Of a stretch of DNA of 64,000 bases, positions 1-63,110 are shown one piece after another; position 1 is the first letter of the stretch; every line of letters begins with the position of its first letter. The notes under the pieces were generated by a model. The model ran no database searches. It was not told the DNA's origin and saw nothing but the letters and a program-made list of their open reading frames with translations. The DNA lies in the IMG/VR virus record IMGVR_UViG_3300024317_000004, positions 1 to 64,000 of that record; one strand, given 5' to 3'. Source of the DNA: a virus. The position numbers and the translations under genes were made by a program.

Positions 1-102
1 CAATCCCGCCACAATCCTCTGCGTGCTTCTCTTCGTATGTGACGTGCTTGTTAGGCACCTCATCGACGCACGTAGGGCACCACCATGGGATACGTGGTTC
101 GG

Positions 103-20728: not shown

Positions 20729-20810
20729 GAAGTGGTGCCCGAGCGGTTCAAGGGGTCGCGCTGTAAACGCGATGGCTACGCCGACGTGAGTTCGAATCTC
20801 ACCCACTTCA
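20729..20810 (+). tRNA. tRNA-Tyr(GTA), long variable arm, CCA not encoded
   Basis: Acceptor GAAGTGG/CCACTTC+A; anticodon stem TCGCG/CGCGA with loop CTGTAAA; T-arm GTGAG-TTCGAAT-CTCAC. Confidence 0.92.
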
Positions 20811-58796: not shown

Positions 58797-59594
58797 ATGG
58801 AAAAGTGGAGTGAACCGAAAGGGCCACCACCGCGATGGCTCGACCTTGCCGACGAAGTCACGGCCGACGAGCCGAAGCCGCCTCGTGACCAGTTCGTCGT
58901 GGCGTGCATGGAGGCGTGCTTGCGACTCGATTGCAACCCGATGCAAGCGGCAGGCGTCACGGCCAACGTGATGAACGAGAGTGCGTGGGGGCAGTCGTAT
59001 CGCGGCAATAACTTGGGTGGCTGGAAGATCTACGAGCACTACGCGATCGCGTATCGCAAGGCTCATGGCAAAGGACCACGCTGGTGGCGCGGTCCCGGCA
59101 ACAAAGCGCCTGGGGCCACACCGAAAGACCTCAAAGGGGGCGATCCGCCGTGGTGCTTCTACAGAGCGTTCGAGTCCATCGAGGACTTTCTCGCGAGCTG
59201 GCTCAAGACGTTCGTTCCAGAGCCGCCCCTTGGTACGCCCTCTCGCGAGAGCAAAGGCGATCCCGCAACGGGTGATTACCGACTTGCGGGTGAACGATTT
59301 TGGGGCCGTCGGGCCAATTGGTTCGATGCCATGGTTGCGGCCGGGTACAAGGGCTCGCGCACCGAAGCGAGTCCCGAGCAAGCGATTGCCGAACATCACA
59401 GTTTGGTGCAGTCCGCCTTAACTCGCTGGGGGCAATCACGTTTAGGCGTGACGGCTGACGGAGCCTGGGGGCCCAAAAGCAAAACGGCCTGCGCCGCGTT
59501 TCAGGCTTGGCACGGACTGTCGGTCACGAACATTCTAGACGACGAGACGCTGGTTGCTTTGGTGCACAGCAAACAACAGCCCCAACCAGAGTGA
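58797..59594 (+). CDS. Endolysin: lysozyme-like (GH73-type) domain plus peptidoglycan-binding domain
   Basis: ESAWG....NNL.G.K...YRAF.S...AGY; LGV.ADG.WGP.S......FQ..HGL. Confidence 0.8.
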   Translation: MEKWSEPKGPPPRWLDLADEVTADEPKPPRDQFVVACMEACLRLDCNPMQAAGVTANVMNESAWGQSYRGNNLGGWKIYEHYAIAYRKAHGKGPRWWRGPGNKAPGATPKDLKGGDPPWCFYRAFESIEDFLASWLKTFVPEPPLGTPSRESKGDPATGDYRLAGERFWGRRANWFDAMVAAGYKGSRTEASPEQAIAEHHSLVQSALTRWGQSRLGVTADGAWGPKSKTACAAFQAWHGLSVTNILDDETLVALVHSKQQPQPE

Positions 59595-59605
59595 CCTGGT
59601 TGGGG
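59580..59605. terminator. Hairpin at the convergence of the late operon and the array transcript
   Basis: CCCCAACCAG-agtgac-CTGGTTGGGG. Confidence 0.55.
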
Positions 59606-60374
59606 CCATTCCCTGTCCCTTCCGCTCCTTTGCAGTCCTGCCCCATCCGCTCCATTGCCATCGGTTGCAATGAGGCCCGTTCCTCTCGTAGCCCCTCCCG
59701 TCCTATCCATTCCACTCGGTTGCTGTCGCTTGCTCTCCCCTCCGTCCCCCTGCTTTGCCCGAGCCTTCGCCCGGCTCCGATGCAGCACGCTGCACCCGAG
59801 TCGAGCCACCGGCGAACCGGCGAACTCGGGGCCTTTGCGATCCTTTCCCCTGCTGTCCTGACCTGTCCGCATCCCATCGGCTCCCCTCCCCTCCCCAACG
59901 CTCCCCATTAGCGCTCGGGACGAGGCCCGGATTGCTCCGGGCGCCGTTGGGCTCCACTCCTGTCCGGTTCACTCCGTTGCCGCCCTTGCCTCTGCTTTCC
60001 GCTCCCCTCTGCCCCAATGCAGTCCGTCGTTTCCAACGCACTCGCTTGAATGCGCTCGAAACGGCGCTCGCGCGAACGCGATGCCGGCCATTCCGTTCCT
60101 CCCCGGCCCAATCATGTCATTCCCAGGCCGCTCCCATGCTCTGCAGTCGGCCCCCCTCCATCGCGTTCCGCTTCACCCCAGTACACATCCACTCCTCTCC
60201 CCTCTCCAAAGCACCTGAATGCTCTCGAGACGGGACCCGATCTCTCGGGACACGTCGCCTTTCCTCTGCGGTCCGTTCACTTGCTCTCCGGTGCCGTCCC
60301 ATCACTTCCTTTGCAGCCAACTCTCGTCCTGCCCACTCCCCGCTTTTCCTCTCCGCTCCACCCCTCTGCCGTCC
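59606..60374 (-). ncRNA. Array of about five 5-nt-periodic tracts (GGA/GCA + NN)n separated by hairpin linkers; putative guide RNA array
   Basis: Plus-strand NNTCC/NNTGC phase is held over 59609-59803, 59834-59904, 59946-60035, 60090-60205 and 60260-60374. Linkers carry stems; three share GCnCTCGrrACG. Confidence 0.75.
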
Positions 60375-60389
60375 GAAGTCTAAAAAGAA

Positions 60390-60986
60390 TTATGCGGCTT
60401 TCTTTGCTAGGTCGCCGTCCCAGCAAACGACCGCGAAAATCCCGAACGGACCACCACGCTGAACTCTGTAGTCGCCGAGACCGTTTCCGATGCCGGCCTC
60501 TTCGAGCAAGAGCCTGATAGTTGCTTCATCCAAGATCTCCGTACGCAACCGAAGATTGAACTTAGCGCTCCATTCGTCGAGCCGCGCACGATGTCTCATG
60601 ACGCGGCCTTTTGTTGCGGGAATTACGACCGCTCGGCTGTCAACCTCGAAGTCCTTTGCGCGAGTTTTTCGGTCCTTGAGATACAAGGGCACCATGTCTT
60701 CGCAAACCACGCACGCAGCGGGCACGAGATACTTTAAGGACTTGCGAGATCCTCGCTGTTTGTGTCCAGCGCCCATTTCGGCGATTGCGCGGCTAATCCC
60801 AGTACCTGCGATGCATAGTCCGCCCTTAGAGTCGCGATGCGTGCCTTTCTCGGCAATGTCTCGCGGCAACTCTGTGGTGATCTGCACGCGACGTGTTGAT
60901 TTTCCACTGTCCGCCTGCGCCTGATCGCCAAACTTGTGAATCAGCAACGGCGAAACGCCCTCGATCCAGACCTCAATCGTTTTCAC
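60390..60986 (-). CDS. Stand-alone RAMP/Cas7-like (RRM-fold) protein, putative RNA-guided effector
   Basis: N-terminal strand IEVWIEGVSPLLIH and C-terminal Gly-rich loop AGIGNGLGDYRVQRGGPFG; GGAGG RBS; flanked by pentamer arrays. Confidence 0.65.
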   Translation of the reverse strand: MKTIEVWIEGVSPLLIHKFGDQAQADSGKSTRRVQITTELPRDIAEKGTHRDSKGGLCIAGTGISRAIAEMGAGHKQRGSRKSLKYLVPAACVVCEDMVPLYLKDRKTRAKDFEVDSRAVVIPATKGRVMRHRARLDEWSAKFNLRLRTEILDEATIRLLLEEAGIGNGLGDYRVQRGGPFGIFAVVCWDGDLAKKAA

Positions 60987-61000
60987 TTTGCCTCCATTAA

Positions 61001-61074
61001 GCCCTTTCGGGCCCCTTCCATTCCCCCGCTCTCCATCCCCACCACTTGCTCTCCTTCGTGTTCCAGTCCAACGC
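61001..61074 (-). ncRNA. Leader pentamer tract (13 units) ending in a GCCC-GAAA-GGGC hairpin
   Basis: Minus strand GCGTT GGACT GGAAC ACGAA GGAGA GCAAG TGGTG GGGAT GGAGA GCGGG GGAAT GGAAG GGGCC. Confidence 0.7.
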
Positions 61075-61078
61075 GCAC

Positions 61079-61106
61079 ACTATACGTACTTTGTACGTAC
61101 AAGCAA
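61079..61106 (-). promoter_or_regulatory. Promoter of the RAMP-like/array unit with palindromic operator
   Basis: TTGCTT-16 nt-TATAGT; spacer holds TACGTAC-TTT-GTACGTA. Confidence 0.7.
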
Positions 61107-61107
61107 G

Positions 61108-61272
61108 TTACTTCTTTACTTCTCGTAGCAATCGTCTTGCTTCGAACAACGCAATGCGTCTGACGAACGACGACACATCTTCACCTGATAATTCTGCGGC
61201 TTTCGCGAGATCTCGCTTTTCCGCTTCCGTGAGACGCAACTCGAGACGCGCCGACCGACCGGACTCAACCAT
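61108..61272 (-). CDS. Ribbon-helix-helix (DUF1778-like) regulator, 54 aa, absent from the ORF track
   Basis: MVESGRSARLELRLTEAEKRDLAKAAELSGEDVSSFVRRIALFEARRLLREVKK. Confidence 0.75.
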   Translation of the reverse strand: MVESGRSARLELRLTEAEKRDLAKAAELSGEDVSSFVRRIALFEARRLLREVKK

Positions 61273-61971
61273 AGGCCAATCATACGGCTACCATACGTAC
61301 ATGGCCACGGCGATATCACGGAAGGTTACAGAAGCACGTAAAACGACGGCGCGGCTCAAGGAGCTTGGCTACAAGCTAGGGCAGTGGGTAGACGCCCCGC
61401 CAGCCGACGTGCCATAGTTCGACCGTTCGGCACGACGTTGTCCGTGACGTGTTGAGCTCCTGAGACGGCCTGGTCACCCGCCAGGCCGTTTTGCTTTTGC
61501 GCTAGACATCCCGCCGTCACGCTGGCACAGTCCCCATCAGAAGCGTTTCTCGCAAGAGGAACTACCGCACGATTCGCCCTGGCCCTCACCGGCTAGGGCG
61601 TTTTGCTATTTCTGGCACGCCGTGCGACGGTCCATCGTACACTTTCACACGTAGATGGGACTGATACGAGGCCTTGGCATGGTGCTGAGGCCTTTTGTTT
61701 TTGTGGCACACTGGAGCCAAGGGATCCGCTGCTCTGGATTATCCCGGGGATAGCAGGTCGCTTACCTAAGGCACGCCGGTCCGTGGCACAGAACCGCGGG
61801 CCGGGGTGTTATGCTTGCGTCAATCCGTTTGCCTGGGCGATGGGCCCGCGCACGTAACAGGCGTAGGGCCACACGGAGTGGGATCCGCGTTACGCGGGTC
61901 GTGCACAGACCCGGAGGCGAAAGCAGCCGGGTGCTTGTGCATGCGAGTTTGCGGGGAGTTTGAGGGAGCCT

Positions 61972-62850
61972 TCACATCTCGCCCAACGCTCGTGCCATGG
62001 CCTCGGCGACGCGTTTCCAGTCGTATCCCTGCACGTGAATCGTCACGCTCGCTTCGACGGTCGAGCCGTACGTAATCTGGATCTCTTGCCGCCGCTCAGT
62101 CGCATCGACGGTAACGACGCGACCGTTGATCAGTGCGCTGTACCGTCCCCCGTTCAGATCTTCCCATACGACATCGCTCATAGTTTTTGTGTCCCCTTCC
62201 CCTTCCAACAACCTCGTTTGCAGTTCTGCCGTCTCGGCATACATGAGGCATTTGCCGGTAAACTTACCATTGCTATAGATTGGCAAATCGTGGAATGGGT
62301 ATTGTTCCAAGGATCGCCTTACCATCTCATTGGTCTCGGCAGCATTGAGGTACTGTCTCGTCTTATTCAACCACACGTACTCGTCATCCGTAGTTGCCGA
62401 TGGGCCAGAAACAAAAGCATACGCTTGTCCGTAGGCTATAGCGTTAACGAGGACGCTGCTTACGCCAAACATTTTGCCAATCTTCTTCGTGGATAGGCTG
62501 TGTGTTCTGTAGATTTTTCTAATCTCTCTTACCTCATCGTCACTCAGCTTCCTGTATTGCCTCCCCTTCTCGATCATGTCCTTTGTGTTGGCTTTAGAGT
62601 CGCCTACGAATAGGTGGCCCCAGTTGCAGCAGGGCGGGTTGTCGCATGAATGGCAGATGAACATTCCGTCGGGAATAGGACCAACAGCGAGTTCCCACGC
62701 GGCCCTGTGAGCCGCGTATTGTTTCTTGCGATCTTCCCAGTAAACGCGGCCGTACCCGTTTCTATTTGTAGGCCCAGTCCACACGATGCACCCGCTATCG
62801 TTGTCGTGGGTGCACTTCGCATAAAGATCGCTGATCGTTTTCAGCATCAT
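61972..62850 (-). CDS. HNH homing endonuclease with HTH and extra C-terminal region
   Basis: CIVWTG...GYG...AHR.AW....G.IP.G..ICH.CDNP.CCN..HL..G....N..D...KGR. Confidence 0.9.
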   Translation of the reverse strand: MMLKTISDLYAKCTHDNDSGCIVWTGPTNRNGYGRVYWEDRKKQYAAHRAAWELAVGPIPDGMFICHSCDNPPCCNWGHLFVGDSKANTKDMIEKGRQYRKLSDDEVREIRKIYRTHSLSTKKIGKMFGVSSVLVNAIAYGQAYAFVSGPSATTDDEYVWLNKTRQYLNAAETNEMVRRSLEQYPFHDLPIYSNGKFTGKCLMYAETAELQTRLLEGEGDTKTMSDVVWEDLNGGRYSALINGRVVTVDATERRQEIQITYGSTVEASVTIHVQGYDWKRVAEAMARALGEM

Positions 62851-62858
62851 CTTGGCCT

Positions 62859-63110
62859 CTAACTTCCTGCCCGTTTCTTTGATTTCTTCTCCTGACCCCA
62901 TCCTGGCTTGCGCAACGTAAGCCCCTCGGCAAGCTCGGGCTGTTCTTGCACCCACGTCTGCAGAGTGCGCCTGCCGATCCCGAGCCTCTCGGCGGCTTTG
63001 GGCACGCTGCCTTCGGCCTTCAGCGCCCTGCTGATCTTCAGCCTGAACGCCTCGGGGTCCGTTGCTCGCAGGGCTAGTAAAGCGTGCGTGGCGGGATGGG
63101 TGATAGCCAT
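62859..63110 (-). CDS. Fis-type HTH regulator
   Basis: ALKAEGSVPKAAERLGIGRRTLQTW. Confidence 0.8.
   Translation of the reverse strand: MAITHPATHALLALRATDPEAFRLKISRALKAEGSVPKAAERLGIGRRTLQTWVQEQPELAEGLTLRKPGWGQEKKSKKRAGS

What the first reader, a model, noticed from the sequence alone, without database searches (positions are those of the whole stretch)
60948..61074. Leader tract decodes to the first codons of the same gene (autoregulation or anti-homologue guide)
Leader NN string: TT CT AC AA GA AG TG AT GA GG AT AG CC. Codons 1-13 of the gene (GTG AAA ACG ATT GAG GTC TGG ATC GAG GGC GTT TCG CCG) match at 7 of 13, including four in a row (W-I-E-G). The last seven NN read as W-I-E-G-I-S-P against the gene's W-I-E-G-V-S-P, with Ser as AGy rather than TCG. 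The match is therefore better at protein level than at DNA level, as expected if the target is a diverged homologue. Alone this is weaker (about one such hit could arise by chance in 64 kb), but it lies directly beside the tract and repeats the same in-frame skip-third-base rule.
Basis: partly seen in the sequence, partly recalled or inferred. Interest (0 to 1): 0.85.

Follow-up and report, generated by a model that had tools for sequence, protein, structure and literature searches.

The report
VIPR guide mirrors its own gene
The repeat tract in front of this phage gene is a recently described kind of guide RNA (VIPR) whose variable letters spell, two bases per codon, the start of the gene family that uses it, most likely to silence the same gene in rival phages.

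Summary
The minus-strand leader (61074..61010) is 13 five-base units, G-G/C-A-N-N. Its NN string matches codons 1-13 of the downstream gene at 7 of 13 dinucleotides, or 17 of 26 bases.

The locus is a VIPR system, first described in three 2026 bioRxiv preprints:
- The 198-aa gene (60986..60390) is a Vipr RAMP protein: PDB profile hit to SUSP1 Vipr at E 1e-8, and a Cas7/Csm3-like fold.
- The leader is its upstream vrRNA.
- About 100 further units (60374..59609) form the downstream vrRNA array.

The score alone is chance-level: shuffled guides give about one hit of 17 or more per genome. The place is not chance:
- It is the single best hit in the 72.4-kb genome.
- In 29 of 122 distinct homologue loci, the guide's best locus-wide hit falls exactly on homologous codon 1. 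Shuffles give a mean of 0.2.
- A second guide matches vipr codons 42-54 at 20 of 26.
- Eight homologue 5' ends match better than self (18-19 of 26), but none reaches the 80% used in the literature.

The most likely function is an anti-rival vipr guide with self kept sub-threshold. Autoregulation is not excluded.

One unusual feature: the scaffold here is GGA, whereas all 155 homologue loci assessed use GGY.

The parts
61010..61074 (-).
   Evidence: GGA-to-GGA distances in 59570..61080 fall on multiples of 5 (20, 22, 14, 14, 12, 13, 13, 11 pairs at 5..40; 7 or fewer at every other distance). The rest of the minus strand shows no such period.
60999..61014 (-). Small hairpin (GGGCCC-GAAA-GGGCUU) that closes T0. 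It overlaps two degenerate units (61009..61000; NN = AA, CT).
   Evidence: MFE -9.5 kcal/mol, z -1.48, so weak taken alone. Its position is like the structured tails that follow the other tracts.
60991..60995 (-). GGAGG Shine-Dalgarno of vipr, 4 nt after the hairpin and 4 nt before the GTG start.
   Evidence: Read directly. Its function is inferred.
60390..60986 (-). vipr: a 198-aa RAMP (Cas7-like) protein with the G-loop G-D-Y-R...G-G-P-F-G and H17.
   Evidence: ORF. phrog_4652 at E 2.2e-17. Profile hit to PDB 36pp_D 'SUSP1 Vipr protein', E 1e-8, over residues 1-186. AF2 model pLDDT 83.6, pTM 0.77. Top Foldseek hits are Csm3/Cas7 chains (6xn3_F, E 2.6e-6). 360 homologues at E<=0.001.
60948..60986 (-). 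vipr codons 1-13, the segment the T0 guide resembles (17 of 26; 19 of 30 through codon 15, 60942).
60825..60863 (-). vipr codons 42-54 (R-D-I-A-E-K-G-T-H-R-D-S-K), the segment that units 1-13 of downstream tract T1 resemble (20 of 26).
   Evidence: 0 of 1000 shuffles reach 20 in-frame in vipr, and 3% reach it anywhere in the genome.
60255..60374 (-). Downstream vrRNA tract T1, 24 units.
60080..60184 (-). Tract T2, 21 units. The structured spacer 60254..60205 precedes it.
   Evidence: Spacer fold -24.3 kcal/mol, z -2.53.
59951..60025 (-). Tract T3, 15 units. The structured spacer 60079..60026 precedes it.
   Evidence: Spacer fold -32.5 kcal/mol, z -4.38.
59824..59894 (-). Tract T4, 5 + 9 units with a 1-nt phase shift. 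The structured spacer 59950..59895 precedes it.
   Evidence: Spacer fold -35.8 kcal/mol, z -2.66.
59609..59758 (-). Tract T5, 30 units. The three-hairpin spacer 59823..59759 precedes it.
   Evidence: Spacer fold -42.6 kcal/mol, z -3.33.
59575..59610 (-). Terminator-like 16-bp hairpin that ends the array.
   Evidence: Fold -27.2 kcal/mol, z -4.76.
61108..61272 (-). 54-aa ribbon-helix-helix-like gene directly upstream on the same strand. A promoter-like site lies at 61307..61279. Whether it belongs to the system is open.
   Evidence: Pfam TacA1 at 1.1e-7 and NikA-like at 1.1e-6. Promoter scan. It is not linked to vipr in 176 homologue loci: 1 distant hit on the opposite strand.

Best explanation
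The locus is a phage-borne VIPR system (Viral Interference Programmable Repeat). The 198-aa Vipr protein, a minimal Cas7-like RAMP, is expected to polymerise one protomer per five-base unit along transcripts of the flanking tracts. It would hold the constant G-G/C-A bases and present each NN pair. The filament would then bind double-stranded DNA whose sequence reads NN-x-NN-x... and block transcription.

The leader tract is the upstream vrRNA of the locus. Its guide is directed at the first 13 (to 15) codons of vipr-family genes, with the skipped base on the wobble position. A second guide, T1 units 1-13, is directed at vipr codons 42-54. I take both to be weapons against the vipr genes of related, competing phages.

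The phage's own gene differs from the guides at whole units. For T0, units 2, 6 and 12 share no base with it (as does unit 14 of the 15-unit form); for T1, units 8 and 12. This leaves 65% and 77% identity, below the 80% level at which natural targets are called in the literature.

What is shown here:
- the protein family and fold;
- the repeat anatomy;
- the register-specific likeness of the guides to vipr.

What is inferred:
- transcription and processing of the tracts;
- filament assembly on a GGA scaffold;
- silencing;
- the rival as the true target.
For: Protein:
- PDB profile hit to SUSP1 Vipr, E 1e-8.
- Cas7/Csm3-like model.
- H17 and G-D-Y-R, the counterparts of the SUSP1 G1/G2 contacts H17, D177, W178 and R179, are conserved.

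RNA anatomy:
- 119 units with position 1 G in 100, position 2 G in 90 or C in 26, position 3 A in 89, and positions 4-5 near-even.
- All units lie on the vipr strand. One tract is upstream and an array of five tract blocks (T1-T5) is downstream, each downstream tract followed by hairpins, with a terminator at the end.
- 100 of 110 distinct homologue loci have a same-strand tract abutting vipr (51 upstream, 72 downstream, 23 both).
- The published SUSP1 locus has one vrRNA upstream and three downstream.

Guide-to-vipr likeness:
- T0's unique best hit in 72.4 kb is at codon 1; 3 of 1000 shuffles reach that score in-frame in vipr.
- In 29 of 122 distinct homologue 5' ends (39 with ties), T0's best locus-wide hit is at homologous codon 1, against a mean of 0.2 and a maximum of 5 in 100 shuffles. 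The mean score there is 13.6, against 7.5 for shuffles.
- All 16 homologue genes with a T0 score of 17 or more have it at offset 0.
- T1 matches self at 20 of 26 and L243 at 21 of 26. 27 of its 29 homologue hits of 17 or more lie at the homologous place, offsets 117-129.

Relatives versus self:
- 8 of 122 homologue 5' ends beat self for T0.
- For T1, the closest relative P0002 (86% identical) could reach 22 of 26, against 20 for self.

Literature:
[quoted passage not shown] - No self hit at 80% or more in any published set.
Against: - No actual target at 80% or more was found for T0. The best is 19 of 26 (73%) in 133 distinct homologue genes. The codon-permitted maximum in 120 proteins is 20 of 26, equal to self.
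- Exact-pattern scans of viral contigs gave no vipr. The 9-unit pattern gave 1 hit, in an unrelated ORF. The 10-unit T1 pattern gave 0 hits.
- The T1-L243 match is not significant on a global count. Sub-guides against vipr genes gave 67 real and 52 shuffled hits at 19 of 24 or more.
- Only one close relative (P0002) is known, and its DNA could not be fetched.
- The constant part is GGA. In SUSP1 the third-base pocket excludes purines, and GGY>GGA was one of the scaffold substitutions tested, whose perturbation abolished silencing. Function of this scaffold is therefore assumed, not shown.
- No RNA data exist for this phage.
Confidence: 0.55

Rival explanations
1. Autoregulation at the DNA level. 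The T0 and T1 filaments bind the phage's own vipr gene despite the mismatches and damp its transcription, giving negative feedback on Vipr dosage.
For: - Self is the best hit in the phage's own genome for both guides.
- T0 sits in the leader of the very gene it resembles.
- T1 shares with the own gene the rare His50 codon (CA), where 90% or more of the family has Tyr.
- Mismatch tolerance of VIPR is not reported in the main texts I searched: 0 occurrences of 'mismatch' in 10.64898/2026.04.26.720927 and none about targeting in the other two.
Against: - Self identity is 65% (T0) and 77% (T1), below the 80% used to call targets. Published sets report no self hit at 80% or more.
- Several units share no base with the own gene.
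- Own-vipr-like guides are not enriched in 119 related loci: 7 at p<=0.05, about 6 expected. At 75% or more in 80 viral loci, no in-frame hit on the start of the locus's own vipr was seen. The only hits inside a locus's own vipr were L074 (out of frame, at +2) and L065 (near the 3' end). This is therefore not a family-wide circuit.
- 8 of 122 homologue 5' ends fit T0 better than self.
Confidence: 0.2
2. RNA-level leader function. Vipr assembles on the GGA units of its own mRNA leader, which end 14 nt before the start codon and 4 nt before the Shine-Dalgarno. It thereby limits translation or triggers processing. On this reading the NN likeness to vipr is a relic of a former guide and has no present role.
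For: - The tract, hairpin and Shine-Dalgarno are contiguous.
- 51 of 110 homologue loci have a same-strand tract ending 80 nt or less before vipr, so an abutting upstream tract is a common design.
- The guide matches no known gene at 80% or more.
Against: - It does not explain why the NNs follow the vipr reading frame in register across the family.
- It does not explain why a second, downstream guide also matches vipr.
- No evidence on translation was obtainable.
Confidence: 0.12
3. Coincidence. A purine-rich repeat happens to resemble a purine-rich gene start.
For: A score of 17 of 26 is expected about once per genome for shuffled guides.
Against: - It is the unique best hit, exactly at codon 1.
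- 3 of 1000 shuffles reach that score in-frame in vipr.
- The register-specific signal holds in 122 homologue loci against 100 shuffles.
- There is an independent second guide.
Confidence: 0.03

Closest known systems
VIPR systems, type II exemplars of Escherichia phage SUSP1 and a Pseudomonas fulva prophage (bioRxiv 10.64898/2026.04.26.720920 and 10.64898/2026.04.26.720927)
   Same: - A small RAMP protein of about 200 aa.
- Tandem pentanucleotide units with three constant and two hypervariable bases, on the gene's strand, one vrRNA upstream and an array downstream.
- A structured 3' part after each tract.
- Phage-borne.
- NN-x reading, with the skip on the wobble position.
   Different: - The constant part is G-G/C-A (third base a purine in 111 of 119 units), not GGY. 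In SUSP1 the third-base pocket excludes purines.
- The protein is only distantly related (E 1e-8).
- Tracts of 14-30 units, against the published 9-16.
- The tails are plain hairpins; a pseudoknot was not tested.
- No vap gene was recognised.
- The VIPR type could not be assigned, because the type figures and data files are supplements I could not see.
Solo vrRNAs of VIPR-null SUSP1-like phages that target relatives' vipr (bioRxiv 10.64898/2026.10.15.759431, section 8)
   Same: - Guides that recognise the early codons of vipr.
- Self-match lower than match to rivals, as a way to avoid autoimmunity.
   Different: - Here the phage keeps its own vipr, and the guide lies in that gene's leader.
- The identity to any sequenced vipr is at most 73% for T0, so the target is inferred, not identified.
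Class 1 CRISPR backbone (Cas7/Csm3 on crRNA)
   Same: - RAMP fold.
- One protomer per fixed step of RNA, with periodic interruption of guide-target pairing.
   Different: - A 5-nt RNA step against a 3-nt DNA step, instead of 6 against 6.
- No CRISPR repeats, no cas1/cas2, and no other cas gene in the window.
TRAP-type attenuation (11 G/UAG triplets spaced by 2-3 nt in a leader; recalled, no call)
   Same: A period-5 purine triplet repeat in a leader, next to a Shine-Dalgarno. This was my first working idea.
   Different: - No TRAP-like protein is present; the adjacent protein is a RAMP.
- The spacers carry the information.
- About 100 further units lie downstream of the gene.

Membership tests
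VIPR system | Vipr protein: a minimal RAMP with an RRM core, a glycine-rich loop and a thumb. | tested here: met
   - Profile hit to PDB 36pp_D SUSP1 Vipr, E 1e-8, residues 1-186.
- Foldseek top hits are Csm3/Cas7.
- The G-loop G-D-Y-R..G-G-P-F-G and H17 are conserved.
VIPR system | Tandem pentanucleotide vrRNA repeats flanking vipr on its strand. | tested here: met
   - 119 units in six tract blocks (T0-T5), one tract upstream and the rest downstream.
- The same layout occurs in 100 of 110 homologue loci.
VIPR system | Constant trinucleotide GGY. | tested here: not met
   Third base: A 89, G 22, C 7, T 1 of 119. All 155 homologue loci assessed are pyrimidine-majority. The discovery paper allows 'a related consensus' and lists NNNGG, YNNNG and NNNNG variants. 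This therefore lowers the fit to the canonical motif, not to the system.
VIPR system | Hypervariable NN positions. | tested here: met
   Positions 4 and 5 are near-even in all four bases: 34/30/40/15 and 36/28/29/26.
VIPR system | Conserved structured 3' tail after each tract (a pseudoknot in the SUSP1 clade). | tested here: inconclusive
   Spacers fold into 2-3 hairpins with z -2.5 to -4.4. Sequence conservation among them is low, with mean column identity 48%. A pseudoknot was not tested.
VIPR system | Natural targets at 80% NN identity or more under the 1-nt-skip rule, and none in the own genome. | tested here: inconclusive
   - No self hit at 80% or more for the two vipr-like guides as 13-unit guides (17 and 20 of 26) or for 12-unit windows of any tract of 12 or more units (best 18 of 24, 75%). 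The short blocks T4a (5 units, 9 of 10) and T4b (9 units, 13 of 18) carry too little information to judge.
- Outside the genome, only T1 against the L243 vipr reaches it: 21 of 26, and 21 of 24 for 12 units. That is not significant globally.
VIPR system | A vap accessory gene next to vipr. | tested here: inconclusive
   The neighbouring RHH (54 aa) and HNH (327 aa) genes are not linked to vipr in 176 homologue loci. Some published systems differ in accessory content.
VIPR system | vrRNAs expressed and bound by Vipr; DNA silencing. | not testable with these tools
   No RNA run holds this DNA.
CRISPR-Cas class 1 | A CRISPR array of direct repeats and spacers, plus adaptation genes. | tested here: not met
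   - Tandem and direct repeat scans show no CRISPR-like array.
- Rfam finds only one tRNA in the window.
- No cas1 or cas2 was searched for explicitly.
Csr/Rsm sponge RNA | GGA motifs in hairpin loops, and an Rfam family match. | tested here: not met
   - The GGA motifs lie in unstructured period-5 runs between the hairpins.
- There is no Rfam match at E<=5, apart from a sub-threshold chance hit.

The most novel reading that the evidence does not exclude
A natural VIPR lineage has switched its constant trinucleotide from GGY to GGA/GCA. The switch comes with changes in the residues that shape the third-base pocket: Asn at the SUSP1 C173 position and V-Q for the family's P-E in the G-loop. This would make it orthogonal to GGY systems.

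The lineage aims two of its guides at the two most conserved coding segments of vipr itself. Its own gene escapes through a serine codon-family switch and a few amino-acid changes. That would be a kin-discrimination circuit in which vipr genes evolve under pressure from each other's guides. Alternatively, it could be a tuned sub-threshold self-repression loop.
Probability: 0.35. Interest if true: 0.7.

Novelty: new variant of a known kind. Interest (0 to 1): 0.5.

Why it matters
VIPR was described only in 2026 and is studied mainly in two enterobacterial and pseudomonad clades. This soil phage adds three things.

1. A natural GGA scaffold. The only solved systems exclude a purine at that position. 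If this scaffold is functional, it would give a second, non-cross-reacting protein-scaffold pair for programmable DNA binding. It would also give a handle on how scaffold specificity evolves.

2. A VIPR-positive phage whose guides point at vipr itself, one of them in vipr's own leader. This makes self/non-self discrimination and mismatch tolerance of the gapped code directly testable, using natural 65%, 77% and perfect-match targets.

3. An independent demonstration that the NN-x code can be read from raw sequence alone.

Tried and rejected
**Early working ideas, dropped**
- A TRAP-like attenuator or a Csr/Rsm sponge RNA. I dropped both once the adjacent protein proved to be a RAMP with a Vipr hit and Rfam gave nothing.

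**Search for the predicted rival target**
None is a vipr homologue, and the scores are as expected for chance.
- The 9-unit pattern gave 1 hit (L135), inside an unrelated 279-aa ORF. About 1-2 such hits are my rough chance expectation.
- The 10-unit T1 pattern gave 0 hits.
- Codon-permitted matching of T0 to 120 homologous proteins found none better than self's potential of 20 of 26.

**Family-wide tests**
- 4270 twelve-unit sub-guides against 129 vipr genes gave 67 real and 52 shuffled hits at 19 of 24 or more, so there is no general enrichment of vipr-targeting.
- Self-locus hits at 75% or more in 80 viral loci: 60 hits, none in-frame at a vipr start.
- Own-vipr likeness in 119 loci was not enriched.

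**Other window guides**
- T2-T5 have no convincing self or external target: the best self hits are 17-18 of 24, at chance level.
- In 1.9 Mb of fetched loci, only hits explained by how the loci were chosen appeared, plus T5-L193 at 21 of 24.

**Sequencing runs**
- No RNA holder is listed.
- The three soil-metagenome runs hold the same phage, near-identical, with no diverged relative.

**Neighbouring genes and typing**
- The RHH and HNH neighbours are not linked to vipr elsewhere.
- The VIPR type could not be assigned.
- Figures and supplementary files of the three preprints (fig. S15, S17, data S3, S4, Supplementary Tables 13-18) were not seen. They may already show a GGA-type consensus, this clade, or vipr-directed guides on VIPR-positive phages.

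Full report
**1. The observation**

On the minus strand, 61074..61010 parses in a single phase into 13 five-base units: GCGtt GGAct GGAac ACGaa GGAga GCAag TGGtg GGGat GGAga GCGgg GGAat GGAag GGGcc.

The gene that follows (60986..60390, GTG start, 198 aa) begins GTG AAA ACG ATT GAG GTC TGG ATC GAG GGC GTT TCG CCG. Unit against codon, 7 of 13 dinucleotides are identical, which is 17 of 26 bases. Units 7-10 match W-I-E-G in a row. Two further degenerate units (AA, CT) bring it to 19 of 30.

**2. The tract is not alone**

GGA on the minus strand of 59570..61080 occurs 79 times. Pair distances pile up at 5, 10, 15 ... 40 (20, 22, 14, 14, 12, 13, 13, 11 pairs), with 7 or fewer at any other distance. 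The remaining minus strand (815 GGA) shows no such period. Period-5 power for C and T of the plus strand peaks only at 59570..60380.

Parsing gives six tract blocks:
- the leader T0 (14-15 units);
- downstream of the gene, T1 (24), T2 (21), T3 (15), T4 (5+9) and T5 (30).

Over 119 units the composition is:

| Position | Composition |
|---|---|
| 1 | G in 100 |
| 2 | G in 90, C in 26 |
| 3 | A in 89, G in 22, pyrimidine in 8 |
| 4-5 | close to even in all four bases |

Between the downstream tracts lie two- or three-hairpin spacers (z -2.5 to -4.4), and the array ends in a terminator-like hairpin. Rfam has no family for any of this.

**3. The protein**

- Pfam finds nothing. PHROGs gives phrog_4652, unknown function, E 2.2e-17.
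- The big protein database holds 360 relatives at E<=0.001. Nearly all are unnamed metagenomic proteins. The closest is P0002, at 86% identity.
- A profile of 33 of them hits one PDB sequence, 36pp_D 'SUSP1 Vipr protein' (E 1e-8, residues 1-186).
- The AlphaFold model (pLDDT 83.6, pTM 0.77) is most like Csm3/Cas7 backbone subunits of type III, IV and VII CRISPR complexes.

**4. The literature**

'Vipr' led to three 2026 bioRxiv preprints. A second search with 'vrRNA' and the system's full name found no others.

10.64898/2026.04.26.720920. I read the abstract, Results, Discussion and methods sections 18, 20 and 27, plus passages. It describes Viral Interference Programmable Repeat systems:
- a phage-borne minimal RAMP (Vipr);
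- vrRNAs of 9-16 tandem YNNGG units followed by a structured tail;
- one vrRNA upstream and three downstream in phage SUSP1;
- DNA recognition in which only the NN pairs base-pair and one target base is skipped per unit, the skip falling mostly on the wobble position;
- natural targets called at 80% NN identity or more, with no self hit at that level;

10.64898/2026.04.26.720927. I read the abstract, Results part 1 of 2, and passages. It gives the structures. One protomer binds per unit. G1 is read by H17 and D177. G2 is read by R138 and W178. Y3 sits in a pocket that excludes purines.

10.64898/2026.10.15.759431. I read the abstract and sections 8, 17, 25 and 26, plus passages.

**5. Is the match to the gene's own start more than chance?**

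By place, yes:
- The real guide has one position of 17 or more, its unique maximum, and it is vipr codon 1.
- Only 3 of 1000 shuffles reach 17 at any in-frame sense position of vipr.

**6. Test on relatives**

I fetched 176 loci that encode relatives: 80 viral contigs, 80 metagenome contigs and 16 genome contigs.
- Among 122 distinct 5' ends, the T0 guide scores mostly 12-15 at homologous codon 1, with a mean of 13.6. The background is 6.5 +/- 2.2.
- In 29 loci (39 counting ties), that codon is the best hit of the whole locus on either strand.
- 100 shuffled guides give a mean of 0.2 and at most 5 such loci, with a mean score of 7.5.
- All 16 genes with a score of 17 or more have it at offset 0.

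The guide is thus written in the reading frame of the conserved N-terminal strand of Vipr (x-x-T-x-E-x-W-I-E-G-x-x-P).

**7. A second guide does the same**

Units 1-13 of T1 (CG GA GT GC GA AA GG GT CA CG GT CT AA) have their best hit in the genome at 60863. This is vipr codon 42, in frame, at 20 of 26. 0 of 1000 shuffles reach that in vipr, and 3% reach it anywhere.

In homologues, 27 of its 29 hits of 17 or more lie at the homologous place. The best is 21 of 26, in L243.

**8. Self or rival?**

Self identity is 65% (T0) and 77% (T1). Several units share no base with the own gene.

Evidence for a rival target:
- Eight of 122 homologue 5' ends fit T0 better than self: four at 19 and four at 18.
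- For T1, three proteins, including the closest relative P0002, could reach 22 of 26 with suitable codons, against 20 for self.

Evidence against:
- No sequence reaches 80% for T0.
- Pattern scans of viral contigs found no vipr with the predicted W-I-E-G-I-S(AGY)-P.
- vipr-directed guides are not generally enriched in this family.
- Own-vipr likeness is peculiar to this locus. It ranks highest of 119 loci, with 7 at p<=0.05 where 6 are expected.

That last result argues against a family-wide autoregulatory design. It fits a programmable, lineage-specific choice of target.

With only one close relative known, and its DNA out of reach, I rate the readings as follows:
- anti-rival: about 0.55;
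- DNA-level autoregulation: 0.2;
- an RNA-level leader role with a relic guide: 0.12;
- coincidence: 0.03.

**9. What is unusual**

In 80 viral homologue loci, the third base after GG is C 2572, T 2402, G 337 and A 187. Of 155 loci with enough units, none has a purine majority; the maximum share is 0.31. Here it is a purine in 111 of 119 units.

The residues that read G1 and G2 in SUSP1 have counterparts here: H17, D172 and Y173, and I also take an Arg of the R-H-R motif (residues 131-135) as the likely R138 equivalent. The protein and P0002 depart from their family at the elements that shape the third-base pocket:
- Asn where SUSP1 has C173 and the family has Ile/Leu;
- V-Q for the 90%-or-more conserved P-E after G-D-Y-R;
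- T/V-G and A-E-M in helix 1.

The link between these changes and the GGA scaffold is inference. No second GGA locus was available to test covariation.

**10. Context**

- The contig is a tailed-phage genome: terminase large subunit, portal, major head protein, sheath and helicase, plus an endolysin and an HNH endonuclease.
- It was seen in three soil-metagenome runs of three studies, one of which may be its source. No RNA data exist.
- The 54-aa ribbon-helix-helix gene and the HNH gene upstream are not associated with vipr elsewhere.

**11. Verdict**

- The thing is a member of the newly described VIPR kind, with a variant scaffold and with guides aimed at its own gene family.

Noticed in passing
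window 59609-61074 (minus strand): The constant trinucleotide of the repeat units is GGA/GCA (third base A in 89 and G in 22 of 119). All 155 related loci assessed use GGY. The Vipr here and its 86% relative P0002 differ from the family at G-loop and helix-1 positions that line the third-base pocket in SUSP1.
   Followed up: partly
window 61079-61106 (minus strand): A perfect 12-nt palindrome, TTGTACGTACAA, lies between the stop codon of the 54-aa RHH gene and the first repeat unit. By eye, it sits between a TTGCTT and a TATAGT hexamer 16 nt apart. It could be an operator and promoter for the vrRNA-vipr unit. The promoter scan did not list it.
   Followed up: no
window 60255-60374 and 59609-59758: Tracts of 24 and 30 units are about twice the published 9-16 units per vrRNA. 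Only the first 13 units of T1 match vipr. The tracts may therefore hold two guides head to tail, without a hairpin between them.
   Followed up: no
window 61972-62955 (minus strand): A 327-aa HNH endonuclease with an HTH domain (HNH_3 at 4.3e-12; phrog_1872 at 4.4e-31) lies two genes upstream of vipr. HNH accessory proteins are mentioned for some VIPR types, but this one is not linked to vipr in 176 related loci.
   Followed up: partly
window 20729-20810: A single tRNA gene (Rfam RF00005, 59.3 bits) lies just upstream of the terminase gene.
   Followed up: no
L074 3583-4427; L055 3674-4228; L044 2420-2959: Some related viral loci carry uninterrupted same-phase runs of more than 100 GGY units (169, 111 and 108) next to vipr, far longer than any described vrRNA.
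   Followed up: no
window 60051-60086: A 36-nt piece of the spacer after T2 also aligns, with 6 differences, to unrelated contigs in all three soil runs. It is probably a chance GC-rich hairpin match.
   Followed up: no
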